The notes beneath the pieces were generated by a model. It saw only the letters and a program-made list of their open reading frames with translations, was not told where the DNA came from and searched no databases. From Tepidicaulis sp. (GTDB taxonomy: Bacteria; Pseudomonadota; Alphaproteobacteria; Parvibaculales; Parvibaculaceae): a stretch of DNA of 64,000 nt. Shown here one piece after another: positions 8,076-49,921 of this stretch (position 1 is the stretch's first letter; every line of letters starts with the position of its first letter). The translations under genes were made by a program, and so were the position numbers. The stretch is taken from assembly GCF_965222285.1 (NCBI RefSeq), contig NZ_OZ244942.1:761664-825663 (forward strand). Direction: 5' to 3'.

Positions 8076-9149
8076 TTAACGTTTGGCCAAATCCCAGGCC
8101 GTGCGGGCAAGATAACCGGCCACTTCGCCATATTGGGTGGCTTTGTCCGAGCTCGCATTGCCATCGAGGCCGCGCTTGTAAACCCCCTGGACGATGGAGG
8201 CGAGGCGGAAAATCGAGAAGGAAAGGTAGAAGTTCCAGTTCTCGATACCGTCCCGGCCGGTGCGCCGGCAATAATCGGCGACATAGTCTTTCTCCGCCGG
8301 AATGCCGCTTGTGGCGAAATCCACATTCATCAGCGTTCCTTGAGAGAAGGTCTCCATGTGATAGAGCATGCAATTATAGGCCAGATCCGCCAGGGGGTGG
8401 CCGATGGTTGCCAATTCCCAGTCGAGAACGGCAATCATTTTGGGCTCGCTCTTGTGGAACATGGTGTTTTCCAGCCGGTAATCGCCATGGGCGATACTGA
8501 CACTGTCATCGGCGGGAATGTTTTCGGGCAGCCACTCGATGAGATGTTCCATCTCCTCGATATTATCGGTCTGGGCGGCGCGGTACTGTTTCGTCCAGCG
8601 CCCGATCTGCCGTTCGAAATAATTGCCGGGCTTGCCGAAATCCTCAAGGCCCGCTGCCTTCAGATCGACGCTATGAAGGCGCGCCAGCACATCGTTCATC
8701 TGGTCGTAAATGGCGGCCCGTTCCGCCGGGCTCATGCCGGGCAGGGTGGGGTCGCGCAGCACGCGCCCGTCGAGATGTTCCATGATGTAGAAGTCGGTGC
8801 CGATCACCTCTGCATCCTGGCAGAGCGCATACATTTTCGGCACCGGCACATCGGTGGCGGCGAGCGCTTTCATGACTTTATATTCCCGGTCCACCTGGTG
8901 TGCGCTGGCGAGCAGCTTGCCCGGCGGTTTTTTCCGCAGCACATATTTTACGCCGCCGCCGGGGCCGGTGGTCTCCAAAAGGAAGGTCGGGTTGGATTGA
9001 CCGCCCTGGAACTGGCGCACGCTCAGCTCGCCGCCAAAACCTTCCACATTCTCCCGGCAGAAGGCTTCCAGTTTCTTCTCATCGAAGCGATGCGCCTCGC
9101 GCACTTCGACAATCTCACCGGCGGCTGCCGTCTGGCTCTGCTCCGTCAT
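8076..9149 (-). CDS. Phosphotransferase (APH-fold kinase), ACAD10/11 N-terminal-like, paralog 1
   Basis: Motifs VRQFQGGQSNPTF, YVLRKKPPGKLL, REYKVM, HGDYRLENTMF and LDWELATIGHPLADL. The start is the ATG at 9149 (MTEQSQT). Confidence 0.8.
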   Translation of the reverse strand: MTEQSQTAAAGEIVEVREAHRFDEKKLEAFCRENVEGFGGELSVRQFQGGQSNPTFLLETTGPGGGVKYVLRKKPPGKLLASAHQVDREYKVMKALAATDVPVPKMYALCQDAEVIGTDFYIMEHLDGRVLRDPTLPGMSPAERAAIYDQMNDVLARLHSVDLKAAGLEDFGKPGNYFERQIGRWTKQYRAAQTDNIEEMEHLIEWLPENIPADDSVSIAHGDYRLENTMFHKSEPKMIAVLDWELATIGHPLADLAYNCMLYHMETFSQGTLMNVDFATSGIPAEKDYVADYCRRTGRDGIENWNFYLSFSIFRLASIVQGVYKRGLDGNASSDKATQYGEVAGYLARTAWDLAKR

Positions 9150-9334
9150 ATCCCATCTCCAAGGCTGCAATATTGTTAGGGGACAATTAGCACGCGCGAA
9201 GACGGGGCGAAAGCCGTTCGCCGGAACCGGCTTTGCGCTTTTGGGAGAATCAAGGGCGCCCTTGCGGCAGAAGGAGCCGGCCCGGTGCCGGTGAAGGGCT
9301 CGACAGCGCCTTTTTCTCATGCTCGACTAGGCAC

Positions 9335-10690
9335 ATGGAGAATATCGATCAGGAAACCATAAGCGAGTTCGCCGGGACGGCGGAGACTTGGCTCGAACGT
9401 CTTCTGGTTTGGGGACGGGAGGAATTTCTCAGTCTCGATATGGCCGCCGCGCTTGGCGCCATCGCCCTGGCCGCAGCTATCTTCTGGGCGGCCCGCAAAT
9501 GGGCGCTGCCGCCGCTGGAAGCCGCCGTCGGCAAGATCAGGGCAGGGTACTGGGTGCATCTGCGTTTGCAGCGTCTGGCCGAACTTGTGCCGGCGCTTGC
9601 CGCCTTGCTGGTGCTCGGCACAGTAAATGCCGGGCTTCAGCAGACCGGTTTCTCGCCGGATATTTCCCGCATCGCGGCCAAGCTCCTGACCGCTTGGATC
9701 ATCATCAAGATCGTTGTCCTGATTCTGAAAGACTCTGCCTGGACCCCGGTGCTTGCCGGGTTCGTCTGGGGCGTGACGGCGCTTGCCATCGTCGGCTGGC
9801 TCGACCCCTTGATGGGGGTGATGGATCAGGTGGGTTTTTCCATCGGTGAATTCCGCTTGTCGCTGCTCGGCATCGTGCAGGCCGCGCTGCTCTTCGCGGT
9901 GCTGATGTGGGTGGCCGCGCTTATTGCCAGAGTATTGGAAAACCGGCTGGGGCGGCTCGCCGGTATCACGCCCTCGGCGCGCGTGCTTGTCGGCAAGATT
10001 ATTCATATTCTCTTTCTCGTCTTTGCCGGGATGGTGGCGCTGACGAGTGTCGGCATCGATTTCACAGCTATTGCCGTCTTTTCCGGGGCGGTGGGCGTTG
10101 GCATCGGCTTCGGTTTGCAAAAAGTCGTCTCCAATCTCATTAGCGGGATCATTCTTCTGCTCGACCGCTCTATCAAGCCGGGCGATGTGATCGAGATCGG
10201 TGACGCCTATGGCTGGATCGAAAAGCTGGGCGCGCGCTATGTCGCCATCATCACCCGGGACGGCAAGGAATTTCTCATTCCCAATGAAGACCTGATCACG
10301 CAGCAGGTGATCAACTGGTCTTACACGGACAAGGTGGTGCGCTTTAAAATCGGAGTGGGTATTTCCTACCGCTCCGATGTACGCAAAGCCATGGACCTGA
10401 TGCTGGAGGCGGCGAACGGGATCGACCGTATTCTGAAGGACCCGCCGCCTGCCGTGCGCCTTGTGGGGTTCGGCGACAGCTCCGTCGATCTGGAGCTGCG
10501 CATCTGGCTGAAAGACCCGGAAAGCGGCACGGTCAATGCGATGAGTGATGCGCGGCTGCGCATCTGGGATCTCTTCCACGAAAACGGGATCGAATTCCCG
10601 TTCCCGCAGCGCGATCTGCATATCGTTTCGGCAGAGGGGCTCGAAACGATCATGCAGCGCGCCAGGCAAGGCGGTGCCGAAACGCCTTAA
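9335..10690 (+). CDS. Mechanosensitive ion channel (MscS family)
   Basis: Multiple N-terminal TM helices, then the MscS core GVGIGFGLQKVVSNLISGIILLLDRSIKPGDVIEI ... YVAIITRDGKEFLIPNEDLITQQVINWS. Confidence 0.85.
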   Translation: MENIDQETISEFAGTAETWLERLLVWGREEFLSLDMAAALGAIALAAAIFWAARKWALPPLEAAVGKIRAGYWVHLRLQRLAELVPALAALLVLGTVNAGLQQTGFSPDISRIAAKLLTAWIIIKIVVLILKDSAWTPVLAGFVWGVTALAIVGWLDPLMGVMDQVGFSIGEFRLSLLGIVQAALLFAVLMWVAALIARVLENRLGRLAGITPSARVLVGKIIHILFLVFAGMVALTSVGIDFTAIAVFSGAVGVGIGFGLQKVVSNLISGIILLLDRSIKPGDVIEIGDAYGWIEKLGARYVAIITRDGKEFLIPNEDLITQQVINWSYTDKVVRFKIGVGISYRSDVRKAMDLMLEAANGIDRILKDPPPAVRLVGFGDSSVDLELRIWLKDPESGTVNAMSDARLRIWDLFHENGIEFPFPQRDLHIVSAEGLETIMQRARQGGAETP

Positions 10691-12429
10691 GTGTTGAAAT
10701 TCCAGCTCAGGCGGATATTGATCCGCCCGTCGCGCGAGCCGGTTTCGATATCGGCATCTCCCAGCGGATAGGCATATTCGATCCCAAGCCGGTAATGCTT
10801 CGTGTCGGATATATCGAAACCGATAACGGCCGATGTCAGATCGTGCTCGATCGAAATGTCGTTGAAGCGGGTATGGGCCGTATCGGCGAGCACATAAGGC
10901 TCGAACGTTTGCAGCCAGGCAATGCCGAGCGGCTGTATATAGCGCAGCTCGACATCGCCGGCATAACCGTAATCCCCTTCCGCCTGACCGTCCGGATAGG
11001 CGCGGCCGAAACGGGCGCCGCCGTAATTGCCCCGTTCCGGGCTCGGCAGCCTGTCATTCGACCAGAAGCCGGCTGCCCGCGCCGTCACGCGCCAGCGCTC
11101 GGCAATTTGCTCGGCCCAGCGGCTGTTCGCGGCAAGGCGCGTGAACTCCGTGTCCTCTGCCTGCTGGCTGGTGACGCCACCCAGGGAGACCGTGTTGCGG
11201 TTTTCGCCGAGATCGACGCCCTGGCGGATTTCCCCGCTAAGCTCCACCAGCCGCTCCCGGCTGATGAGGCGCAGCGCGCTGTTGAGTTCCGCGGCGGTAT
11301 ACCGCAACTCCTGCTGCGCGCGCACCGATGGCTGGCCGGGAAGCGAGAACGTGTAATTCGATTCTTCATCGTAATAGTCGATACCGCCCGCGACATTCCA
11401 CGTCTTTTCCCGCCGGAGGATCAGAGGATAGGCAAGGCCGATATGATATTTGTTGCGAACCTTATCTTCATTGACATTGATCGCTTGTCCCAGCACGAAG
11501 ACCTGATCGTCGTCCTCGCCTTCGAAACGGTTGGCGTTGAGCGTGATGCGCAATCCGTCCGTTCCGATCTCCTGCTGATACTCGGCGGCATAATATTCTT
11601 CATCCTCGATCGGCGCGAGCGCGGCAAGAGAGAGCTGCTCACCGAAAGGCGTGTGCCCTTGCGTGCTGACATTGGCGAGCAGCAGGAAATCGTCTTCATC
11701 CCCGCCATCGAGCGAGCCGCCGAAACCGAAGCGCTTGATCTCTTTTTCCTCCACGCGCAAGGTCGTTGCGCCATTGGCGGTGCGCGGCACCGGCGCGCGC
11801 ATGGTCAGCTTGGCGCCGGGGATACGTTCCATAAGCTGGGTATAGCGCTCGAAGGTCGCGCGGGTGAGCGGCACTTCTCCGATCAGCCGGTCCGCAAGGT
11901 CGGCAACGCGCTCCGCCACCGCTTCGTTCTCGATCTCGATTTCCGTGCGCACGATATGGCCTTCGACAATGACGATCGTGACGACACCGTCCGCAAAATT
12001 ATTTTCAGGCAGATAAGCGTAGGAAAGCGGATAGCCGGCCTCCTGATAGCGCTGCGTGATCTTGCGCGCGGCAAGGGCGAGATCTGCGAGCCGGGCTTCC
12101 TTGCCCACCAGGTGCTTGAGGTCCTGGGCAAGCAATTCGAGGTCGAACACGCTGCCACCCAGAAACTTGATATGAGAAACGGGGATCACCGTCTCCGCAT
12201 CGAGCCCTTCTTGGGCATCCGGCAGATTGACTTCGGCTCCCTCGCGGTCGAGCGGAATGTCAAGTGCATCGCGCAATTGCGGCGATGTTGTCGGCTGTTT
12301 GTCGTCGATGACGGCGGGCAGGTCGTCGGCAAGAACGGGCGTGTTCAACCCACCGAGCAGCAATCCTGCAATGACGGTGCGCGCGCTTGCATTGACTGCG
12401 CTGCGCAGTTTCATGGGCCTATTTGGCAT
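10687..12429 (-). CDS. ShlB/FhaC/HecB-type (TpsB, Omp85 superfamily) outer-membrane transporter
   Basis: Signal peptide (RTVIAGLLLGGLNTPVLADD), and a POTRA-like block ISHIKFLGGSVF...ITQRYQEAGYPLSYAYLPENNFADGVVTIVIVEG. There is an L6-like motif NYGGARFGRAY and an aromatic C-terminal beta-strand INIRLSWNFNT. The start at 12429 has a GGGAGG SD sequence about 10 nt upstream. Confidence 0.8.
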   Translation of the reverse strand: MPNRPMKLRSAVNASARTVIAGLLLGGLNTPVLADDLPAVIDDKQPTTSPQLRDALDIPLDREGAEVNLPDAQEGLDAETVIPVSHIKFLGGSVFDLELLAQDLKHLVGKEARLADLALAARKITQRYQEAGYPLSYAYLPENNFADGVVTIVIVEGHIVRTEIEIENEAVAERVADLADRLIGEVPLTRATFERYTQLMERIPGAKLTMRAPVPRTANGATTLRVEEKEIKRFGFGGSLDGGDEDDFLLLANVSTQGHTPFGEQLSLAALAPIEDEEYYAAEYQQEIGTDGLRITLNANRFEGEDDDQVFVLGQAINVNEDKVRNKYHIGLAYPLILRREKTWNVAGGIDYYDEESNYTFSLPGQPSVRAQQELRYTAAELNSALRLISRERLVELSGEIRQGVDLGENRNTVSLGGVTSQQAEDTEFTRLAANSRWAEQIAERWRVTARAAGFWSNDRLPSPERGNYGGARFGRAYPDGQAEGDYGYAGDVELRYIQPLGIAWLQTFEPYVLADTAHTRFNDISIEHDLTSAVIGFDISDTKHYRLGIEYAYPLGDADIETGSRDGRINIRLSWNFNT

Positions 12430-12514
12430 ACCGGTCCCCCCTCCCAAGGTCGCCGCGTCCAGACCATTGTGCCGGTTATGGCTGGATTTACAACAATACA
12501 GATTTTATGAAAGG

Positions 12515-12544
12515 GGCGCCGGCTCTGCATGCAAAGCCGGCGCC
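12515..12544 (-). terminator. Hairpin between lipoprotein A and the TpsB gene; probable terminator or attenuator
   Basis: Perfect 10-bp stem GGCGCCGGCT / AGCCGGCGCC with a 10-nt loop, 34 nt downstream of the lipoprotein A stop. The U-tract on the minus strand is only partial. Confidence 0.45.
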
Positions 12545-12577
12545 TTCAGGATGTGTCATGTGGAGAGCATCACGCGC

Positions 12578-12958
12578 TTAAAGCCCGCCGGTAAGACCGC
12601 CCAGCAGGCCGCCAAGCAACCCGCCAACGGCGCCGCCGTCTTCACCGTCTCCTGTGCCGGTGTCGCCGCCAAGGCCGCCATCGAGACCGCCGCCCAGCAG
12701 GCCGCCGCTCTCACCGCCGCTGCCGCCGGTCAGTGTGCCGGTGAGCCCGCCGGTAAGACCGCCAAGCAGTTGCGTGCCGCCATCAAGGCCTGTACCGCCG
12801 TCTGAATCGCCGCCGGATAGGCCACCAGTCAGGCCGCTCGTCAGATTGCCGGCCAGATCACCCGAAAGTCCATCGGAGAGCCCGCCGGAGAGTAGGCCGC
12901 CGCCGCTCTCGCCGCTGCTCAGCAAGCCGCCGGTTGCCGAGACGAGCCCGCCGCTGCT
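12578..12958 (-). repeat. Coding low-complexity repeat tract (Gly-Leu-Ser/Thr, glycine-zipper-like) at the 3' end of lipoprotein A
   Basis: The translation reads GGLLSGGLSDGLSGDLAGNLTSGLTGGLSGG...GGLTGGLTGTLTGG...VGGLLGGLLGGLTGGL. The DNA is reiterated gcc/acc/aag triplets. Confidence 0.7.
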
Positions 12959-13858
12959 TTCGAGCGTGGTCCCCAGACCTGAAAGCGCTGCATGTTGATT
13001 GCCGAGTTGGCCGCTCAATTCACCGCCAAGGGCAACCACCGCGCCGCCGCTTTTGTCGAGAAGGCCGCCAAGCGCGGGGCCGATGACCAAAGCGGCGCCG
13101 ACCGACTGCGTGGTATCTTCTGTTTTGATGACAAGCGGGCGAACGACGCCGGTCAGCTCGGTTGTCAGGCCGGTAAGCTGTGCATCTTCGGCGGTGAACT
13201 CAAGCGCGAGACCATTGCTGGTTTGCGTAATTTTCCCGCCAAGATCGCCGACCGTGCCGCCGAGTTTGGTAAGCGCGCCGGTTGTCTCATCGACCTGCAT
13301 GAAGACGGGCAGAGTGTTGAGCGCGGTAACCGTGTTGCCTGCCTCCGTGACCGCTTCACCGGTTTCAGCGGCGGTACCCGCCGCGCCGGCAAGCGTGGTG
13401 CCGAGCGCATTGTCGTTTTCGCTCAGATTTCCAAGGCCGTCATTGAGGCCCGTGCTCAGTGCATTGATGCCTTCGCCAAGCTCGATAATGATACCGCCTG
13501 TACCGCTCGTCACTGCACCGATAAGCGGCACTTCCTGCTGGCTGATGCCTTCGCCGATCACTGTGACCGTATCGCCGATGCTGCCCGTCGTGTCGCCTGC
13601 GGACTGGATAAGGTTTTCGGTGGCAAGCGTCGCCGCTTCGCCGCCGCCGGATCCGCCGCCTGAGCCGCTTCCTGGCAGCCCGCCGGACCCGCCATCGCCG
13701 GAACCATTATTATTGTTGGAGCTGCTGCTATCCGTGCCCGATCCGCCAAGGGCATGGGTCGAATCGGTGCTGCCCGCGCAGCCTGCAAGAAGAAGAGGCA
13801 GGCCGCATAAAGCGGCAAGAAAGGGGGAAGATCGGAAAACTTGCTTTCGTTCAATCAT
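12578..13858 (-). CDS. Glycine/serine/leucine-rich lipoprotein A (unknown family), paralog of 14162-15382
   Basis: Lipobox LLLAGC after a hydrophobic signal, then a G/S/N-rich linker. A central block of about 230 aa is shared with the neighbour, and the C-terminal 126 aa are GGL(T/S)GGL-type repeats. An AGGAG SD sequence lies 6 nt before the ATG at 13858. Confidence 0.7.
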   Translation of the reverse strand: MIERKQVFRSSPFLAALCGLPLLLAGCAGSTDSTHALGGSGTDSSSSNNNNGSGDGGSGGLPGSGSGGGSGGGEAATLATENLIQSAGDTTGSIGDTVTVIGEGISQQEVPLIGAVTSGTGGIIIELGEGINALSTGLNDGLGNLSENDNALGTTLAGAAGTAAETGEAVTEAGNTVTALNTLPVFMQVDETTGALTKLGGTVGDLGGKITQTSNGLALEFTAEDAQLTGLTTELTGVVRPLVIKTEDTTQSVGAALVIGPALGGLLDKSGGAVVALGGELSGQLGNQHAALSGLGTTLESSGGLVSATGGLLSSGESGGGLLSGGLSDGLSGDLAGNLTSGLTGGLSGGDSDGGTGLDGGTQLLGGLTGGLTGTLTGGSGGESGGLLGGGLDGGLGGDTGTGDGEDGGAVGGLLGGLLGGLTGGL

Positions 13859-14012
13859 GGCCGACTCCTGCATCACTAATGATCAGAACAATCAGCATCC
13901 GGAGCAGAACGCCCGCTTTCCGGTGCTGACCCCTAACCGCCTCTACAGAAGCAGCCGAACCCGGAAAAATGGTGCCGTGATAAATCGCGAAGATCAATCT
14001 CTTTAATAAATC

Positions 14013-14046
14013 ACCGGTTTCATTTTTTGCAATTGGCAAAACCGGT
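14013..14046. promoter_or_regulatory. Inverted repeat in the AT-rich spacer upstream of lipoprotein A
   Basis: ACCGGTTT ... AAACCGGT arms (8 bp) enclose TTGC-AATTG-GCAA. It lies about 155-190 bp upstream of the ATG at 13858. Confidence 0.3.
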
Positions 14047-14124
14047 ATGTTTAACGCGCGGTTTTGGAATAACGCTTTTCACTGATTTACAATCGGGCAC
14101 AACGAATAGGGGCCGGCAGGCGGT

Positions 14125-14150
14125 GCGGGCGGCGTATCGTTGCCGCCCGC
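14125..14150 (-). terminator. Hairpin just downstream of the lipoprotein B stop
   Basis: Perfect 9-bp stem GCGGGCGGC / GCCGCCCGC with an 8-nt loop, 12 nt after the stop at 14162. The U-tract is weak. Confidence 0.4.
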
Positions 14151-14161
14151 GCTATTTCTTA

Positions 14162-14476
14162 CTATTGATCGCTGCCGCTAAGGCCGCCGGTCAGCCCGCT
14201 GATGAGGCGGGTCACTGGATCGGCTTCTTCGCCGTCTTCGCTGCCGCCGCTGAGGCCGCCCGTCAGTCCGCCGACAAGGCCGGTAACGGGATCGGCGCCT
14301 TCACCGCCGACAAGGCCGGTAAGCTGATCGGTGGGAAGACCGCCTTCCGTCAAACCGCCCAAGAGATCGTCCGTCGGCAAACCGCTATCCGTGAGCTGAC
14401 CGAGCACGGCATCCGTTGGAAGGCCCGCGCCTTCCCCGCCGCTCAGCGCGGCCAGCAGCGTGTCGGTCGGCAAACC
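14162..14476 (-). repeat. Coding tandem repeats (GLPTD-x-LL units of 14-17 aa, then two DPVT...GLTGGLSG units) at the 3' end of lipoprotein B
   Basis: Read directly from the translation: GLPTDTLLAALSGGEGA / GLPTDAVLGQLTDS / GLPTDDLLGGLTEG / GLPTDQLTGLVGGEGA / DPVTGLVGGLTGGLSGG... / DPVTRLISGLTGGLSG. Confidence 0.7.
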
Positions 14477-15382
14477 GCCGCCCGCCAGGCCGCCGCCTGA
14501 CCCTTCGCCGGAGGAGATGAAGCCGCCTGTGTCACGGACCAGCGCGCCGACACCTCCGACGGACTTACCAACGCCCGCGAATGCGATGTTCTGAGCGGTG
14601 AGTTCATCGCCAGCCATGATGATGGCACCGCCGGCCTCGCCCAATGCTTCGCTTCCCATGGGGCCGATGACAAGTGCATCACCGACCTTCCTTGTGGTGC
14701 CCTCCACGTTAGCCACAACGGGCCGGATCGCTGCGGTCAGCTGAACGCCTGCGCTGCCGAGGGGGCTGTTCGGATCTTCGAACTGAAGGGCCAATCCTTC
14801 CGCTTCTTCGGAAAACGTGAGGCCAACAGCGCTCACGTTCTCGCCGATCATGGTGAGGGCGCCGGAATTTTCTTCAACTTGCATAAAGACCGGCAAGGTA
14901 TCGAGTGCACTAATCAACTCACCGGTTGCCGTAACGGCGCCTCCGGTTTCCGCAACCGCGCGGGTTCCGCGATAGGCGGTAGTCCCAACCGCGTTGTCAT
15001 TGGTGCCGAGTTCTCCAAGCCCCTGGTCAAGCGCGAAGGTAGCCTGATAAAGGCTCGTCCCGCCGGACCTCGCTACATCCAACACAGGGTCTCTCAACTC
15101 ATCTTCGATGGGCAAGTCTTCCTGGCTGACGGCGAAGCTAGCCAACAAAAGGGTCTGACCAACACCTTCAGTAACAGTAGCTGCATCTTGGAAGATATTT
15201 TCCGTCGCTTGCGTTTCGGCCGCAGGCGATGCACCGCCGCCGCCGCTACCACCGCTATCTCCGACGCTGGCGCCAGGGCCGTCGGAGCTGCTGCCGCAAG
15301 CGGCAAGCGTAAATGAAATTGCAAGGGCCAATGGCGCTGCGCGCCACAAAGAATGCCCAAAGAGGGTAAAGGTCGTGCGCAT
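14162..15382 (-). CDS. Glycine-rich lipoprotein B (unknown family), paralog of 12578-13858
   Basis: Lipobox FTLAAC and a G/S linker. The shared central block includes NDNA(L/V)GTT, LPVFMQV(D/E)E, GLAL(E/Q)F, (V/I)RP(L/V)V and GDALVIGP / GAALVIGP. The C-terminus has tandem GLPTDxLL x4 and DPVTxLxxGLTGGLSG x2. A GGAGGA SD sequence lies 7 nt before the ATG. Confidence 0.7.
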   Translation of the reverse strand: MRTTFTLFGHSLWRAAPLALAISFTLAACGSSSDGPGASVGDSGGSGGGGASPAAETQATENIFQDAATVTEGVGQTLLLASFAVSQEDLPIEDELRDPVLDVARSGGTSLYQATFALDQGLGELGTNDNAVGTTAYRGTRAVAETGGAVTATGELISALDTLPVFMQVEENSGALTMIGENVSAVGLTFSEEAEGLALQFEDPNSPLGSAGVQLTAAIRPVVANVEGTTRKVGDALVIGPMGSEALGEAGGAIIMAGDELTAQNIAFAGVGKSVGGVGALVRDTGGFISSGEGSGGGLAGGGLPTDTLLAALSGGEGAGLPTDAVLGQLTDSGLPTDDLLGGLTEGGLPTDQLTGLVGGEGADPVTGLVGGLTGGLSGGSEDGEEADPVTRLISGLTGGLSGSDQ

Positions 15383-15516: not shown

Positions 15517-15664
15517 GATTCTTTAGCAGGAAAAATTTGTTGGCTACAAGATTGTAGGCGGCGAAAAAATTCCCTGTGCGGAAGGTCTGGAACTTTCGCG
15601 GATTTGCGGCGTTTGTTGCGTCTTGCGAATTTTCAGATCGCAAACTAAATGTCTGATTTTTATT

Positions 15665-15681
15665 ACAGATTCAGAATCTGT
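15665..15681. promoter_or_regulatory. Perfect 8-1-8 palindrome ACAGATTC-A-GAATCTGT in an AT-rich spacer
   Basis: Verified by reverse-complementing. It sits in the most AT-rich part of the 15383-15760 intergenic region. Confidence 0.35.
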
Positions 15682-15696
15682 TAATCTTTATAAAGA

Positions 15697-15740
15697 CAAA
15701 AAATTGCCCCCGAAACAGACGCTCCGGGGGCAAATTTTTT
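15697..15740. terminator. Bidirectional rho-independent terminator; ends the kinase paralog 2 transcript on the minus strand
   Basis: 9-bp stem TTGCCCCCG / CGGGGGCAA with a 12-nt loop, an A-run upstream and TTTTTT downstream. It lies 21 nt beyond the stop of the 15761-16855 gene. Confidence 0.6.
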
Positions 15741-15760: not shown

Positions 15761-16855
15761 CTACTTTGCGCCGGCCCGCTGTGCGTAATGCCAGCCGAGT
15801 TCGGCAAGCGGGCGCACCTGCGCCGCATTCTGCGCAGCGTTTTCATTCGAGGCCGTGCCGTCGCGCACGCGCCCGACAATGCCCTGTAGGATGCCGGCAA
15901 GGCGGAAGAAGTTATACGCGAAGTAATAATCGATATTCTCGATGCTCTTACGGCCTGTGCGTTCGCAATACATCTGCGTATATTCCTCGCGCGTCGGAAT
16001 GCCGAGCGCGGGCAAGTCGGCATTGGAAAGGCTCTGTGTGCCGGGGCTATTACCGCCGCCCGGCATTACCCATTGCATCAGGTGGTAGGTGAAGTCACCC
16101 AGTGGATGGCCGAGCGTCGAAAGCTCCCAGTCCAGAACGGCGATCACTTTCGGCTCGGTCGGATGCAGGATCATGTTGTCGAGCCGGTAATCGCCATGGA
16201 CGATACTTGTCGCATCGTCATTGGGGATGTTCTCCGGCAGCCATTCCATCAGCTTGTTCATCTCCGTCACCGTTTCGGTTTCCGAGGCAACATACTGTTT
16301 GGACCAGCGGGAAATCTGCCGGGCGAAATAATTGCCGGGCTTGCCGAAATCGCCAAGGCCGATCGCTTCGTAGTCGATCATGTGCAGCTTGGCGAGTGTG
16401 TCGATCTTGGCTTCGTAAATGGCGCGGCGTTCGGCAGGCTCATAGCCCGGCAGGAGCGGTTCCCATAGGATGCGCCCTTCCACCATGTCCATAATATAGA
16501 ACATCGTGCCGATGACGCTTTCATCTTCACAAAGGCAATAGGTGCGCGCGACGGGAAAGCCTGCGCCGTAAAGCGCGCTGATAACTTTGTATTCCCGGTC
16601 CACGGCATGGGCGGAGGGGAGCAGTTTGCCCGGCGGCTTGCGGCGCAGCACATATTTCTTTTTCGGTGTGACGAGCTGATAGGTCGGGTTTGATTGCCCG
16701 CCCTTGAATTGGCGCACCTCGAGCGGTCCTTCATAGCCCTCCACATGGGCTTCCATGTAATCGGCCAGGCGCTTTTCGTCGAACTTGTGTTTATCCAGCA
16801 CTTCCTTCGTGCCGGAAAACATTTCCTGGCGGCTTGCTTCCCCTTGCTCGCTCAT
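15761..16855 (-). CDS. Phosphotransferase (APH-fold kinase), ACAD10/11 N-terminal-like, paralog 2
   Basis: Motifs VRQFKGGQSNPTYQL, YVLRRKPPGKLL, REYKVI, HGDYRLDNMIL and LDWELSTLGHPLGDF. Confidence 0.8.
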   Translation of the reverse strand: MSEQGEASRQEMFSGTKEVLDKHKFDEKRLADYMEAHVEGYEGPLEVRQFKGGQSNPTYQLVTPKKKYVLRRKPPGKLLPSAHAVDREYKVISALYGAGFPVARTYCLCEDESVIGTMFYIMDMVEGRILWEPLLPGYEPAERRAIYEAKIDTLAKLHMIDYEAIGLGDFGKPGNYFARQISRWSKQYVASETETVTEMNKLMEWLPENIPNDDATSIVHGDYRLDNMILHPTEPKVIAVLDWELSTLGHPLGDFTYHLMQWVMPGGGNSPGTQSLSNADLPALGIPTREEYTQMYCERTGRKSIENIDYYFAYNFFRLAGILQGIVGRVRDGTASNENAAQNAAQVRPLAELGWHYAQRAGAK

Positions 16856-46403: not shown

Positions 46404-47261
46404 ATGAGGATGCGGGTACTTACTCTTCTCGGGGCACTTGTGGCAGGCGCGCTGGCACTGGTGGATATGGGGTCCATGGCGGCATTCGCGGATCAGCCGC
46501 ATGAATGGCAGATGGGCTTTCAGCAGGCGGCAACGCCGATCATGGAGCAGCTGACCTGGTTCGATAACATGCTGCTTTATATCATCACCGCCATTTCGCT
46601 CTTCGTTCTGGCGCTCCTCCTGATCGTGATGGTGCGCTTCAACGCCAAGTCGAACCCGGAACCCTCCACGACGACGCATAACACGCTGATCGAAGTGGCC
46701 TGGACGATCATTCCGGTGCTGATCCTCGTGACGATCGCCATTCCGTCCTTCCGCCTCCTTTACAATCAGGTCGTGGTGCCGGAAGCCGATGTGACGATCA
46801 AAGCGACGGGCTATCAGTGGTACTGGGGGTACGAGTACCCGGACCATGGCGGCATGATCTATGACGCGCTGATGGTCGAAGACGGCGATCTGAAGGAAGG
46901 CCAGCCGCGCCTTCTGGAAACCGACACCGAAGTCGTCGTGCCGGTGAACAAGGTCATCCGCCTGCAGGTAACGGCAGCCGACGTGATCCATGCCTGGGCC
47001 ATTCCCGCTTTCGGCGTGAAGATCGACGCGGTGCCCGGCCGTCTTAATGAGACCTGGTTCAAGGCAACCAAGACCGGCACCTATTACGGCCAGTGCTCGG
47101 AGCTTTGCGGCATCCGCCACGCTTTCATGCCCATAAAGGTGCGTGTGGTGACGGAAGAAGAATTCGCGTCCTGGACCGAATGGGCGCAGCAGGAATATGC
47201 AGGCGTGGACACGAACGTGTCCGTGGCGTCCGCAGAACAATCGTCGGACGCGCGGCGCTAA
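46404..47261 (+). CDS. coxB: Cytochrome c oxidase subunit II
   Basis: A signal/TM region and the CuA site GQCSELCGIRHAFMP. AAGGAA lies 6 nt before the ATG at 46404; 46398 and 46410 are alternatives. Confidence 0.9.
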   Translation: MRMRVLTLLGALVAGALALVDMGSMAAFADQPHEWQMGFQQAATPIMEQLTWFDNMLLYIITAISLFVLALLLIVMVRFNAKSNPEPSTTTHNTLIEVAWTIIPVLILVTIAIPSFRLLYNQVVVPEADVTIKATGYQWYWGYEYPDHGGMIYDALMVEDGDLKEGQPRLLETDTEVVVPVNKVIRLQVTAADVIHAWAIPAFGVKIDAVPGRLNETWFKATKTGTYYGQCSELCGIRHAFMPIKVRVVTEEEFASWTEWAQQEYAGVDTNVSVASAEQSSDARR

Positions 47262-47290
47262 GCCCGGGCCCGGATAACATCAGTATTTGA

Positions 47291-48916
<1,626 letters not shown>

Positions 48917-48967
48917 CCCGCGGGGCTTGCCCCGAACCGGACAAGTATTTTCAAAGTAGCGGGATAT

Positions 48968-49921
48968 ATGTCGGATCTTACTGCCACGAATGAACGTCTT
49001 GAGGCCGAAGCCCGCCATAATGGCGGCTCGGCCCGGGACTATTTCGAGCTCCTGAAACCGCGGGTGATGTCGCTCGTGATTTTCACGGGGCTCGTCGGCA
49101 TCGTCGTGGCGCCGGGCTCGATCCATCCCGTCATCGCTTTCACCGCGCTGCTGTGCATTGCGGTGGGGGCGGGCGCTTCGGGCGCCTTGAATATGTGGTA
49201 CGACGCCGATATCGATGCGGAAATGTCCCGCACGAGCTCGCGCCCGATCCCGGAGGGACGGATCGAGCCGGGCGAGGCGCTGGGCTTCGGGGCGACGCTT
49301 TCCGTCGGCTCCGTTCTTGCCATGGGCGTCATGGTCAATTGGACCGCCGCCGCGCTTCTGGCGCTGACCATCGGCTTTTATCTGTTCGTCTATACGATGT
49401 GGCTGAAGCGCTCGACGCCACAGAACATCGTCATCGGCGGGGCCGCGGGGGCATTCCCGCCCATGATCGGCTGGGCCGCGGTGACGGGCTCCGTCTCGCT
49501 GGAATCGATCACGCTCTTCCTCATCATTTTCATGTGGACGCCGCCCCATTTCTGGGCGCTCGCGCTTTACCGGGCAGGCGACTATGAAAAAGTTTCCGTT
49601 CCCATGCTCCCGGTCGTGGCGGGCAAGCGGGAAACGCGCAAACAGATCCTGATTTATTCGGTGCTTCTGGTCGCAACAACCCTGGCGCCTGTCGCGCTCG
49701 GCTTTGCCGGGCTCGTCTATGGCGCGGTCACGCTTGCCGCCGGCATCTTCTTCCTCGTGCTTGCTGCCCGCATCTGGGTGGAAGGGGACGGGGAGAAGGC
49801 CGACGGGCGGGCCAAGGCACTGTTCGGCTTTTCCATCCTTTATCTGTTCCTGCTTTTTGCAACCTTGCTCGTGGAACATGCGGCCGGCTTGACGTTCGCC
49901 GTTCCGGGCCTGGGGGCATAA
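48968..49921 (+). CDS. ctaB: Protoheme IX farnesyltransferase (heme o synthase)
   Basis: [34 protein letters not shown], and a UbiA-fold membrane protein. Confidence 0.9.

What the first reader, a model, noticed from the sequence alone, without database searches (positions are those of the whole stretch)
10687..15382. ShlB/FhaC-type Omp85 transporter paired with two paralogous glycine-rich lipoproteins instead of a TpsA exoprotein
Seen in the sequence:
- Three co-oriented minus-strand genes.
- The downstream one (10687-12429) has a signal peptide, a ShlB-type POTRA block, an L6-like GGARFGRAY motif and an aromatic C-terminal strand. That makes it a TpsB-class transporter.
- The two upstream genes (12578-13858 and 14162-15382) both start with clean lipoboxes (LLLAGC, FTLAAC).
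- Each continues with a G/S-rich linker, then a shared central block of about 230 aa (NDNA-GTT, LPVFMQV-E, GLAL-F, RP-V, ALVIGP), then Gly-Leu-rich C-terminal repeats.
- I see no TPS secretion-domain hallmarks (NPNL / NPNGI) and no large beta-helical exoprotein in the window.

Established knowledge: classical two-partner secretion moves a non-lipidated TpsA carrying an N-terminal TPS domain. Surface lipoprotein export in Neisseria uses a different Omp85-related protein (Slam, DUF560).

Inference: this may be a non-canonical TpsB-dependent surface-lipoprotein export or display module, with a duplicated cargo.
Basis: partly seen in the sequence, partly recalled or inferred. Interest (0 to 1): 0.75.

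Follow-up and report, generated by a model that had tools for sequence, protein, structure and literature searches.

The report
TpsB transporter paired with helical lipoproteins
A two-partner-secretion-type outer-membrane transporter in this marine alphaproteobacterium is paired with two lipid-anchored, glycine-rich helical proteins rather than the usual giant exoprotein; the pairing is conserved across three classes of Proteobacteria and probably puts an aggregation/adhesion lipoprotein on the cell surface.

Summary
Three co-oriented minus-strand genes encode a TpsB-class Omp85 transporter (10687-12429) and two paralogous lipoproteins (12578-13858, 14162-15382). The window is about 97% identical to Tepidicaulis marinus.

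The lipoproteins are not orphans. Both belong to Pfam PF15984 (Collagen_mid), the family of the Burkholderia "Bcc-CLP" lipoproteins. They have no TPS domain and no true collagen repeats.

The pairing is strongly conserved:
- 35 of 37 informative loci of this transporter clade have a Collagen_mid lipoprotein gene directly upstream.
- 42 of 46 independently found lipoprotein loci have the clade transporter directly downstream.
- Hosts span Alpha-, Beta- and Gammaproteobacteria.
- B. cenocepacia shows the same layout by annotation (bcal1524-1523-1522).

In about a third of loci the module abuts a Tad/Flp pilus operon. It does not in this window.

BCAL1524 is found in outer-membrane vesicles and promotes autoaggregation and virulence.

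The best reading is TpsB-dependent surface display of a lipid-anchored adhesion protein. This is inferred; export itself is untested. One preprint noted the association in passing, and nobody has characterised it. I classify it as a new variant of type Vb secretion, with interest 0.6.

The parts
10687..12429 (-). TpsB-class Omp85 transporter gene (580 aa): signal peptide, conserved N-terminal DDLPxxIDxxxPT motif, two POTRA units and a beta-barrel.
   Evidence: Pfam POTRA_2 and ShlB. AF2 model pLDDT 86, pTM 0.80. Best Foldseek PDB hits are CdiB 6WIM (E 3e-24) and FhaC 4QL0/4QKY, ahead of BamA and TamA. Profile hit to CdiB.
12328..12429 (-). Transporter signal peptide (aa 1-34, ...NTPVLA|DDLP).
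   Evidence: Read from the sequence. The predicted cleavage site lines up across the clade alignment.
11959..12183 (-). ShlB-type POTRA domain (aa 83-157 of the 580-aa protein).
   Evidence: PF08479, E 5.9e-19. Matches the TpsB4 POTRA structure 2MHJ and CdiB.
10996..11022 (-). L6-loop motif GGARFGRAY (aa 470-478). The clade consensus is GGxRFGRGY.
   Evidence: G470, F474 and Y478 are invariant and R476 nearly invariant in 30 clade members. The motif aligns to GGESSVRGF of CdiB.
12578..13858 (-). lipoA: proximal Collagen_mid lipoprotein (426 aa, lipobox Cys27).
   Evidence: PF15984, E 5e-33. Lipobox LLLAGC read from the sequence. Homologues sit next to clade TpsBs.
12917..13528 (-). lipoA Collagen_mid domain (aa 111-314), predicted as a long-helix bundle with a small beta insert.
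   Evidence: Pfam coordinates. AF2 helices at 73-107, 116-140, 151-181, 227-256, 261-285 and 290-314; pLDDT is about 70-87 in most of them and lower (about 43-68) over 160-260. Hydrophobic residues recur at 3-4-residue spacing.
12581..12916 (-). lipoA disordered Gly-Leu/Thr-rich tail, ending in the glycine-zipper-like VGGLLGGLLGGLTGGL.
   Evidence: Sequence. pLDDT below 50. The C-terminal GLLGGL motif is conserved family-wide.
14162..15382 (-). lipoB: distal paralogous Collagen_mid lipoprotein (406 aa, lipobox Cys29). The domain is at aa 100-289 (nt 14516-15085).
   Evidence: PF15984, E 2.5e-24. 39% identity to lipoA, E 2e-38. Orthologues P0008, P0010, P0014 and P0015.
12515..12544 (-). GC-rich hairpin (GGCGCCGGC...GCCGGCGCC) between lipoA and the transporter. 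It may be an attenuator or RNA stabiliser.
   Evidence: Read from the sequence. The T-run is weak, so the consensus terminator scan did not call it. The function is inferred.
14122..14153 (-). 13-bp GC-rich hairpin just after the lipoB stop codon.
   Evidence: Palindrome reported by the scan on the + strand and read on the coding strand. It has no T-run on the coding strand, so the function is inferred.
15656..15733 (-). Terminator-like hairpin ending the upstream APH gene (15704-15733), then a sigma-70-like promoter match (15656-15684) ahead of lipoB.
   Evidence: Consensus scan. These are pattern matches only and their number is not above the shuffle expectation.

Best explanation
This is a lipoprotein variant of two-partner (type Vb) secretion.

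Proposed mechanism:
1. The two Collagen_mid lipoproteins are exported by Sec. They are acylated at Cys27 and Cys29.
2. [quoted passage not shown]
3. The dedicated TpsB-class transporter then threads the still-unfolded, Cys-free polypeptide through its barrel.
4. The result is a helical-bundle domain and a Gly-Leu tail displayed on the cell surface. The N-terminal lipid and the long G/S linker keep the protein tethered.

On the surface the protein promotes cell-cell aggregation or adhesion. In many other genomes it probably does so together with Tad/Flp pili.

Shown here: gene identities, family memberships, predicted folds, conserved adjacency and composition.
Shown in the literature for a Burkholderia homologue: OMV localisation and aggregation/virulence phenotypes.
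Inferred: Lol sorting, passage through the TpsB, final topology, and any role of the conserved C-terminal GLLGGL motif as a recognition signal.
For: 1. The transporter is a bona fide TpsB-type protein.
- Pfam POTRA_2 plus ShlB.
- Confident AF2 model whose best PDB matches are CdiB and FhaC.
- L6 motif retained.

2. It belongs to a discrete subfamily. Clade members score 438-856 bits against the clade HMM; other TpsBs score 134 bits or less.

3. Adjacency is conserved in both directions.
- 33 complete plus 2 contig-truncated CLP genes lie directly upstream, on the same strand, in 37 informative clade loci.
- 42 of 46 informative CLP loci have the clade TpsB directly downstream.
- Hosts include Tepidicaulis (Alpha), Cupriavidus, Ralstonia, Imbroritus and Pseudorhodoferax (Beta), and Halomonadaceae, Guyparkeria and Methylophaga (Gamma).

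4. No TPS-domain protein is present. There is no PF05860 in the CLPs or in the ten window ORFs scanned, and no conserved third gene.

5. The CLPs look like cargo rather than a machine subunit.
- Copy number and domain number vary.
- The tails are hypervariable and low-complexity. Mean column identity is 26-33%, against 51% for the transporter.
- 107 of 116 mature proteins have no Cys other than the lipid Cys.
- Aromatic residues make up about 0.3%.
- The +2 residue is S, A or G in 118 of 119, which is an outer-membrane Lol sorting type.

6. Experimental support from a homologue.
- BCAL1524 is in OMVs. Its deletion lowers autoaggregation and Galleria virulence, and complementation restores both (PMC10303873).
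- BCAL1523 and BCAL1524 are induced together with the flp genes on contact with host membrane (PMC7970998).

7. The module is linked to Tad/Flp adhesion pilus operons in 34 of the 104 sequences searched (103 loci plus the window).
Against: - No experiment links any CLP to its TpsB.
- Presence in OMVs does not prove surface exposure.
- Every characterised TpsB substrate carries an N-terminal TPS domain, and the CLPs have none.
- An N-terminally anchored substrate would need hairpin or C-terminus-first threading, which has no precedent in type Vb.
- Some CLPs have no adjacent TpsB: 4 of 46 loci here, and 3 of 5 in B. cenocepacia by annotation (PMC10224339).
- One clade TpsB (Herbaspirillum, L022) has no CLP within 7 kb and sits beside tad genes. 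Another (L008) has a lipoprotein with no Collagen_mid hit.
- BcpO shows that a lipoprotein in a TPS locus can be a periplasmic-side accessory (PMC3415462).
- The CLP model is only moderately confident (mean pLDDT 57).
- A long H1 plug helix was not predicted in the transporter.
- I could not check the bcal1522 sequence.
Confidence: 0.55

Rival explanations
1. [quoted passage not shown] The complex would do something else, for example help assemble or stabilise Tad-pilus or other envelope components. The lipoproteins would never be surface exposed.
For: - Omp85 proteins commonly work with lipoproteins, and BcpO is a lipoprotein accessory in a TPS locus (PMC3415462).
- The module is linked to tad operons, including a CLP-less TpsB next to rcpC-rcpA-tadA in L022.
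- OMV content is compatible with a periplasm-facing position.
Against: - No other substrate gene is conserved in the module.
- Accessory subunits are usually conserved in size and number. CLPs vary from 225 to 819 mature residues, with hypervariable repeats, duplicated genes or duplicated domains.
- The autoaggregation phenotype of a BCAL1524 deletion suggests an external role.
- The module occurs without any tad genes nearby in this window and in many other loci.
Confidence: 0.2
2. The Omp85 protein acts as an insertase rather than a translocase. It would integrate the conserved C-terminal glycine-zipper segment of the CLP into the outer membrane. The CLP would then be fixed at both ends as a periplasmic or trans-membrane strut.
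For: - The extreme C-terminus is a conserved (GGLL)n / GLLGGL motif with GxxxG periodicity.
- BamA-type Omp85 proteins recognise C-terminal signals (established knowledge).
- Foldseek also matches BamA and TamA strongly.
Against: - The transporter is closest to translocases (CdiB, FhaC), with ShlB-type POTRA domains.
- No Pfam glycine-zipper family hits the tails at E<=1.
- The tail is predicted to be disordered.
- The motif lies in low-complexity sequence, so part of its apparent conservation may be compositional.
Confidence: 0.1
3. The adjacency reflects only co-regulation within adhesion islands. The transporter would secrete a canonical TpsA encoded elsewhere, and the lipoproteins would reach their destination independently through Lol alone or another route such as LptDE or T2SS.
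For: - Some CLPs lack a neighbouring TpsB (PMC10224339).
- Other surface-lipoprotein routes exist (PMC7857515).
- The rest of the T. marinus genome could not be searched for a TpsA.
Against: - Tight same-strand adjacency of 4-250 nt persists across three classes, including loci with no other adhesion genes.
- The TpsB clade is a discrete subfamily that tracks the CLPs.
- The closest relatives of both lipoA and the TpsB are in the same foreign lineages, which implies inheritance as a unit.
Confidence: 0.05

Closest known systems
Classical two-partner secretion (type Vb): FhaB/FhaC, CdiA/CdiB, ShlA/ShlB
   Same: The transporter has the TpsB architecture: signal peptide, ShlB-type POTRA domains, Omp85 barrel and an L6 R..Y motif. 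CdiB and FhaC are its best structural and sequence matches. A dedicated partner gene is adjacent in the same orientation.
   Different: The partner is a 350-840-aa lipoprotein with a predicted all-alpha domain. It has no TPS domain, no beta-helix and an N-terminal lipid anchor. The transporter forms a separate subfamily, matches only the C-terminal half of Pfam ShlB weakly, and has GRAY/GRGY in place of VRGY/F.
Burkholderia cepacia-complex collagen-like lipoproteins (Bcc-CLPs: BCAL1523, BCAL1524, BCAM0695 and others)
   Same: They share the Pfam family PF15984, the lipobox and low-complexity flanks. bcal1524 and bcal1523 are followed by an outer-membrane protein gene, bcal1522, in the same order and on the same strand (PMC10224339). 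There is OMV and autoaggregation evidence for BCAL1524 (PMC10303873).
   Different: The Burkholderia proteins carry long (GTS)n collagen-like repeats. The T. marinus proteins have no PF01391 collagen hit; they have G/S linkers and GGLx tails instead. The published work does not connect the CLPs to a TpsB. I could not verify that bcal1522 belongs to the clade.
Slam / type XI secretion of surface lipoproteins (TbpB, fHbp, NilC)
   Same: The concept is the same: a dedicated outer-membrane barrel encoded next to its lipoprotein cargo, which ends up lipid-anchored on the surface.
   Different: Slam is a DUF560 barrel with a periplasmic TPR domain, not a POTRA/ShlB Omp85 protein. Slam cargos have a C-terminal beta-barrel domain, whereas CLPs are predicted to be helical with a disordered tail.
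Lipidated classical autotransporters (type Va: NalP, SphB1)
   Same: They are type V proteins with a lipobox signal peptide. The topology of their lipid anchor is also unresolved (PMC8151025).
   Different: Passenger and barrel are one polypeptide there. Here they are separate genes and the barrel is of the Omp85/TpsB type.
BcpO in Burkholderia bcpAIOB, and the BamA-RcsF lipoprotein-in-barrel complex
   Same: A lipoprotein is genetically or physically coupled to a TpsB/Omp85 protein. RcsF shows that a lipoprotein linker can thread through a barrel lumen.
   Different: BcpO is 73-74 aa and coexists with a true TpsA, BcpA (PMC3415462). RcsF is displayed through OmpA/C/F assembled by BAM, not through a dedicated TpsB.

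Membership tests
TpsB (type Vb transporter, ShlB/FhaC/HecB family) | ShlB-type POTRA domain(s) N-terminal to the barrel | tested here: met
   PF08479, E 5.9e-19. AF2 shows two alpha/beta units at residues 81-165 and 169-231. Profile matches to the POTRA regions of CdiB and TpsB4.
TpsB (type Vb transporter, ShlB/FhaC/HecB family) | Omp85-type beta-barrel (16 strands) most similar to FhaC/CdiB | tested here: met
   AF2 pLDDT 86, pTM 0.80. Foldseek top hits are CdiB 6WIM (E 3e-24, TM 0.64-0.69), FhaC 4QL0 and CdiB 6WIL. DSSP gives about 16-18 strand segments; I did not resolve the exact strand number.
TpsB (type Vb transporter, ShlB/FhaC/HecB family) | Conserved L6 loop tip motif (V/I)RG(Y/F) | tested here: met
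   The motif is GRAY in the window and GRGY in the clade consensus. R476 is nearly invariant and Y478 invariant. It aligns to VRGF of CdiB. It is a variant of the motif with the key R and Y kept.
TpsB (type Vb transporter, ShlB/FhaC/HecB family) | N-terminal H1 plug helix plus linker | tested here: inconclusive
   A conserved DDLPxxIDERQPT motif follows the signal peptide, with pLDDT about 83 for that block, and it aligns to the N-terminal region of CdiB. AF2 predicts only a short helix at residues 50-56.
Two-partner secretion system (type Vb) as a whole | Cognate TpsA cargo with an N-terminal TPS (haemagglutination activity, PF05860) domain and a beta-helical fold | tested here: not met
   No PF05860 hit in lipoA or lipoB at E<=1, in 24 family members or in ten window ORFs including the largest. 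The CLP domain is predicted to be alpha-helical. The rest of the genome was not searchable.
Pfam PF15984 Collagen_mid / Bcc-CLP lipoproteins | Significant match to the roughly 200-aa middle-region domain | tested here: met
   lipoA 114.9 bits and lipoB 86.6 bits, against a gathering cut-off of 31.1. All 24 aligned homologues match.
Pfam PF15984 Collagen_mid / Bcc-CLP lipoproteins | Lipoprotein signal peptide | tested here: met
   Lipoboxes LAGC and LAAC in the window. 119 of 128 family ORFs have a detected lipobox; five of the other nine are cut off by contig ends and four carry LQGC, which my pattern missed.
Bacterial collagen-like proteins (Gly-X-Y triple helix, PF01391) | Collagen triple-helix repeats | tested here: not met
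   No PF01391 hit in any of 24 members at E<=0.01. The tails have period-4 GGLx repeats rather than G-X-Y repeats.
Slam / type XI secretion | DUF560 outer-membrane barrel next to the lipoprotein cargo | tested here: not met
   The transporter matches only POTRA_2 and ShlB in Pfam.
Surface-exposed lipoprotein | Acylation and exposure on intact cells | not testable with these tools
   The only evidence is indirect: a homologue in OMVs with an aggregation phenotype (PMC10303873).

The most novel reading that the evidence does not exclude
A distinct subclass of type V secretion may exist in which a TpsB-type Omp85 recognises and translocates a lipid-anchored, TPS-less, all-alpha cargo. Recognition might use the conserved C-terminal GLLGGL glycine-zipper motif (C-terminus-first or hairpin threading), with the N-terminal lipid left in the outer membrane. 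That would be a fifth route for surface lipoproteins, besides Slam, LptDE, T2SS and BAM-RcsF. In many bacteria it would be genetically wired to Tad pili as part of one aggregation apparatus.
Probability: 0.35. Interest if true: 0.8.

Novelty: new variant of a known kind. Interest (0 to 1): 0.6.

Why it matters
Type Vb secretion is defined by recognition of an N-terminal TPS domain by the TpsB POTRA domains. A widespread TpsB clade whose only conserved partner is a lipoprotein without that domain would show that TpsB transporters can use another recognition mode. It would also add a new route for placing lipoproteins on the Gram-negative surface, which is still an open question outside Neisseria and Bacteroidota.

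The family includes B. cenocepacia proteins already proposed as adhesins and vaccine antigens. Knowing their export partner, and their link to Flp/Tad pili, bears directly on that work.

The question is immediately testable, because BCAL1524 mutants and assays already exist.

Tried and rejected
- Fold identity of the Collagen_mid domain. Foldseek against the PDB gave no significant match. The best hit had E 0.18 (a de novo helical barrel), and the BAR-domain and AhlB pre-pore hits had E of about 1 or more. I therefore do not claim a ClyA-like pore-former or a BAR-like reading. A PDB sequence search also found nothing.
- NCBIfam gave no family for any of the three proteins.
- The first two lipoprotein homologue searches were swamped by low-complexity words, giving only 19 and 9 hits. 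Single-sequence phmmer against 1.8 billion representatives found only 50 clusters. That shows the reach of one sequence, not the size of PF15984.
- A conserved third gene downstream of the transporter, like bcal1520, does not exist. Only lineage-specific neighbours were found.
- Intrinsic terminators and promoters. The consensus scan found no more sites than in shuffled sequence. The hairpins after lipoA and lipoB lack T-runs, so I report them only as hairpins.
- No tRNA or Rfam elements occur in the window. Base composition gives no sign of a recently acquired island.
- My first lipobox regex was too strict and wrongly flagged the Halomonas CLPs as lacking a lipobox. Inspection by eye corrected this.
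- AF-multimer modelling of the POTRA domains with the CLP was not possible with the tools available.

Full report
**What is in the window.** Positions 10687-15382 carry three co-oriented minus-strand genes.

- The downstream gene (10687-12429) most likely starts at the ATG at 12429. That ATG is preceded by GGGAGG, and it gives the same 580-aa product as a 99%-identical database protein (P0020).
- It encodes a signal peptide (...VLA|DDLP), a ShlB-type POTRA domain (PF08479, E 5.9e-19) and a weak match to the C-terminal half of the ShlB barrel family (PF03865, E 4.5e-6).
- The two upstream genes, lipoA (12578-13858) and lipoB (14162-15382), start with lipoprotein signal peptides (LLLAGC, Cys27; FTLAAC, Cys29). 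A G/S-rich linker, a shared central block and a Gly-Leu/Thr-rich tail follow.
- The central blocks are 39% identical over 208 aa, E 2e-38.
- The window is from Tepidicaulis marinus or a very close relative (Alphaproteobacteria, Parvibaculaceae). The transporter is 97% identical to strain MA2, and the surrounding gene order (xseA, purD, APH, CLP, CLP, TpsB, mscS, APH) is the same in Tepidicaulis sp. LMO-SS28.

**The transporter is TpsB-class but forms its own subfamily.**

- An AF2 model built on 30 clade members is confident (pLDDT 86, pTM 0.80). It shows a signal peptide, a short N-terminal helix, two POTRA-like units and a large barrel.
- Its best PDB matches are the solved TpsBs: CdiB 6WIM (E 3e-24, TM 0.64-0.69), FhaC and CdiB 6WIL. 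These rank ahead of BamA and TamA.
- A clade profile hits CdiB by sequence (E 7e-16).
- The clade consensus is RFGRGY, with R476 nearly invariant and F474 and Y478 invariant.
- An HMM of the clade scores members at 438-856 bits and other TpsBs at 134 bits or less.
- Whether there is an FhaC-like H1 plug is unresolved. A conserved DDLPxxIDERQPT motif follows the signal peptide, but only a short helix is predicted.

**The lipoproteins belong to a known but poorly understood family.**

- Both match Pfam PF15984 'Bacterial collagen, middle region' (114.9 and 86.6 bits; cut-off 31.1).
- All 24 aligned homologues hit only this family. None has a TPS domain (PF05860) or collagen triple-helix repeats (PF01391). 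'Collagen-like' is therefore a misnomer for this clade.
- AF2 (24 sequences, mean pLDDT 57) predicts a bundle of six long helices over residues 73-314, with a small beta insert. pLDDT is about 70-87 in most helices and lower (about 43-68) over 160-260.
- Hydrophobic residues recur at 3-4-residue spacing. The linker (residues 28-72) and the tail (315-426) are disordered.
- No solved structure resembles the domain significantly.
- Across 116 distinct mature family members, 107 have no cysteine apart from the lipid Cys. Composition is G 25%, T 13%, aromatics about 0.3% and K+R 1.6%.
- The residue after the lipid Cys is S, A or G in 118 of 119, the type sorted to the outer membrane by Lol.
- Nearly all members end in a conserved GLLGGL(L/T)GG motif, usually followed by one to four polar or basic residues. 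This could be a recognition or membrane-interacting element. It lies in low-complexity sequence, so I treat it as a lead.

**The pairing is conserved.**

- *From the transporter side.* I examined neighbourhoods of transporter homologues (with Pfam). I also scanned one genome per GTDB species and obtained 38 loci.
  - Of 37 clade loci with upstream sequence available, 33 have a complete Collagen_mid lipoprotein gene immediately upstream on the same strand. Two more show its C-terminal end at a contig edge.
  - The exceptions are Herbaspirillum autotrophicum (L022, no CLP within 7 kb) and a Pseudorhodoferax MAG (L008, a low-complexity lipoprotein with no Collagen_mid hit).
  - Distant TpsBs (L007, L041-L046) have no CLP. 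L007 has a classical 5167-aa neighbour instead.
- *From the lipoprotein side.* I scanned metagenome contigs with a CLP motif and obtained 57 loci. Of 46 with at least 500 nt of downstream sequence, 42 have the clade transporter directly downstream.
- Hosts span Alpha-, Beta- and Gammaproteobacteria.
- lipoA and the transporter both find their nearest non-Tepidicaulis relatives in Halomonadaceae (52-56% identity). The module therefore moves as a unit.
- CLP number varies: one gene, two tandem genes (Tepidicaulis, H. salifodinae), two divergent genes (Cupriavidus, Ralstonia), or one gene with two Collagen_mid domains (H. litopenaei, P0001, P0002).
- No third gene is conserved.

**What the literature adds.**

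- In B. cenocepacia J2315, Table 1 of PMC10224339 lists four minus-strand genes in this order:
  - bcal1524 (CLP);
  - bcal1523 (CLP);
  - bcal1522 (outer membrane, 'exported heme utilization-related protein', about 561 aa);
  - bcal1520 (lipoprotein).

  The flp pilus operon lies next to them.
- That paper proposes the CLPs as adhesins but does not mention a TpsB. I could not check the bcal1522 sequence, so placing it in the clade is an inference from the annotation and from the Burkholderiaceae loci I did analyse.
- BCAL1524 is detected in outer-membrane vesicles. Its deletion reduces autoaggregation and Galleria virulence, and complementation restores both (PMC10303873).
- BCAL1523 and BCAL1524 are induced with the flp genes on contact with host-membrane vesicles (PMC7970998).
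- A 2024 preprint on rhizosphere secretion systems states in passing that a 'collagen middle domain' is prominent among genes flanking T5bSS transporters in Burkholderiaceae (10.1101/2024.05.07.592589). The association has therefore been glimpsed.
- Reviews list lipidated type V proteins only among classical autotransporters such as NalP and SphB1 (PMC8151025).
- Reviews list Slam, BAM-RcsF, NalP and T2SS as surface-lipoprotein routes, with no TpsB route (PMC7857515). My searches found no paper describing a lipoprotein cargo of a TpsB.
- BcpO is a 73-74-aa accessory lipoprotein in a TPS locus that still has a classical TpsA (PMC3415462).

**An unexpected link to Tad/Flp pili.** Tad genes lie within 7 kb of the module in 34 of the 104 sequences searched (103 loci plus the window), and in 20 of the 32 clade loci from the genome scan, L009-L040.

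- In Halomonas, Bisbaumannia and Chromohalobacter the order is CLP(s), TpsB, flp, rcpC, rcpA, tadA, tadB, all on one strand.
- In Cupriavidus, Ralstonia and many soil metagenome contigs, a second CLP copy is divergent. It is directly followed on its own strand by a Flp pilin, a TadE-like protein, RcpC and the RcpA secretin.
- The CLP-less Herbaspirillum TpsB is also followed by rcpC-rcpA-tadA.
- This window has no Tad genes in its 64 kb. The same holds within the roughly 7 kb of flank examined in the Guyparkeria, H. litopenaei and marine-metagenome loci. The module therefore also stands alone.
- Tad pili mediate tight adherence and autoaggregation, which fits the BCAL1524 phenotype.

**Interpretation.** The most economical reading is a lipoprotein variant of two-partner secretion. 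The CLPs would be acylated and taken to the outer membrane by Lol. The dedicated TpsB would then pass them, unfolded, through its barrel. They would remain tethered by their lipid and long linker, displaying a helical domain and a Gly-Leu tail that promote aggregation or adhesion.

- Arguments for cargo rather than accessory:
  - there is no other conserved substrate gene;
  - the transporter is of the translocase type;
  - CLP length, copy number and repeats are highly variable, while the transporter is much more conserved;
  - the composition is Cys-free and aromatic-poor;
  - the one studied homologue has an external phenotype.
- Arguments against:
  - there is no TPS domain;
  - the topology of an N-terminally anchored substrate is awkward;
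  - orphan CLPs exist;
  - there is a CLP-less clade member next to tad genes;
  - no experiment is direct.
- I put the export model at 0.55, a periplasm-facing accessory or complex role at 0.2, an insertase role for the C-terminal zipper at 0.1, and mere co-regulation with an unlinked TpsA at 0.05.

**Novelty and score.**

- The components are members of known families, and the association has been noted once in passing.
- The system as a unit has not been described or tested. It consists of a dedicated TpsB subfamily whose only conserved partner is a TPS-less lipoprotein, it is widespread, and it is often wired to Tad pili.
- I classify it as a new variant of a known kind, with interest 0.6.
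The lipoprotein family already exists in Pfam and has some experimental literature, and the central claim of export remains an inference.

Noticed in passing
L003, L010, L011, L013-L015, L022-L040, L074-L102 (not in the window): The CLP-TpsB module is frequently adjacent to a Tad/Flp pilus operon. It either heads the operon (Halomonadaceae) or has a second, divergent CLP copy as the first gene of the flp-tadE-rcpC-rcpA strand (Cupriavidus, Ralstonia). A CLP-less clade TpsB in Herbaspirillum is also followed by rcpC-rcpA-tadA.
   Followed up: partly
window 12581-12630 (lipoA C-terminus); C-termini of CLPs in L001-L103: Almost all family members end in a conserved GLLGGL(L/T)GG glycine-zipper-like motif with GxxxG periodicity, usually followed by one to four polar or basic residues. 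It may be an export signal or a membrane-interacting element.
   Followed up: partly
L009:5550-5710 versus window 13770-13930: In the T. marinus MA2 draft genome, the lipoA orthologue has a 1-nt deletion in a C5T3 tract inside the signal-peptide coding region. This removes the in-frame start codon. The metagenome copy L047 has C6T2 at the same place. It could be a sequencing error, a pseudogene or slippage-prone variation.
   Followed up: partly
window 8076-9320 (-), 15761-16855 (-), 9233-10690 (+): Two paralogous APH-family phosphotransferase genes flank the module. A convergent MscS-type mechanosensitive channel gene overlaps the transporter's stop codon by 4 nt. The same arrangement is present in Tepidicaulis sp. 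LMO-SS28.
   Followed up: no
window 12515-12544 and 14122-14153: GC-rich perfect hairpins follow the stop codons of both lipoprotein genes. Neither has a clear T-run. They may be attenuators or mRNA stabilisers that set the ratio of lipoprotein to transporter.
   Followed up: partly
L018, L019, L021 (Halomonas litopenaei); P0001, P0002: Some CLPs carry two tandem Collagen_mid domains in one polypeptide of about 700-840 aa, in place of two genes.
   Followed up: no
L006:4308-11231: In a gammaproteobacterial MAG the module is followed by a spore-coat-U/PapD/usher fimbrial cluster and a PGA (pgaC/pgaD) operon. This is another adhesion or biofilm neighbourhood.
   Followed up: no
window 47258-49879 (-): An 873-aa ORF has no Pfam match at E<=0.001 and is overlapped by long ORFs on the opposite strand. 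I did not resolve which strand is coding.
   Followed up: no
L051:10421-11398, L053:10357-11289: In two marine metagenome loci a further ORF just downstream of the transporter gives a weak hit to the CLP profile (20-34 bits). It may be a degenerate or very divergent third lipoprotein.
   Followed up: no
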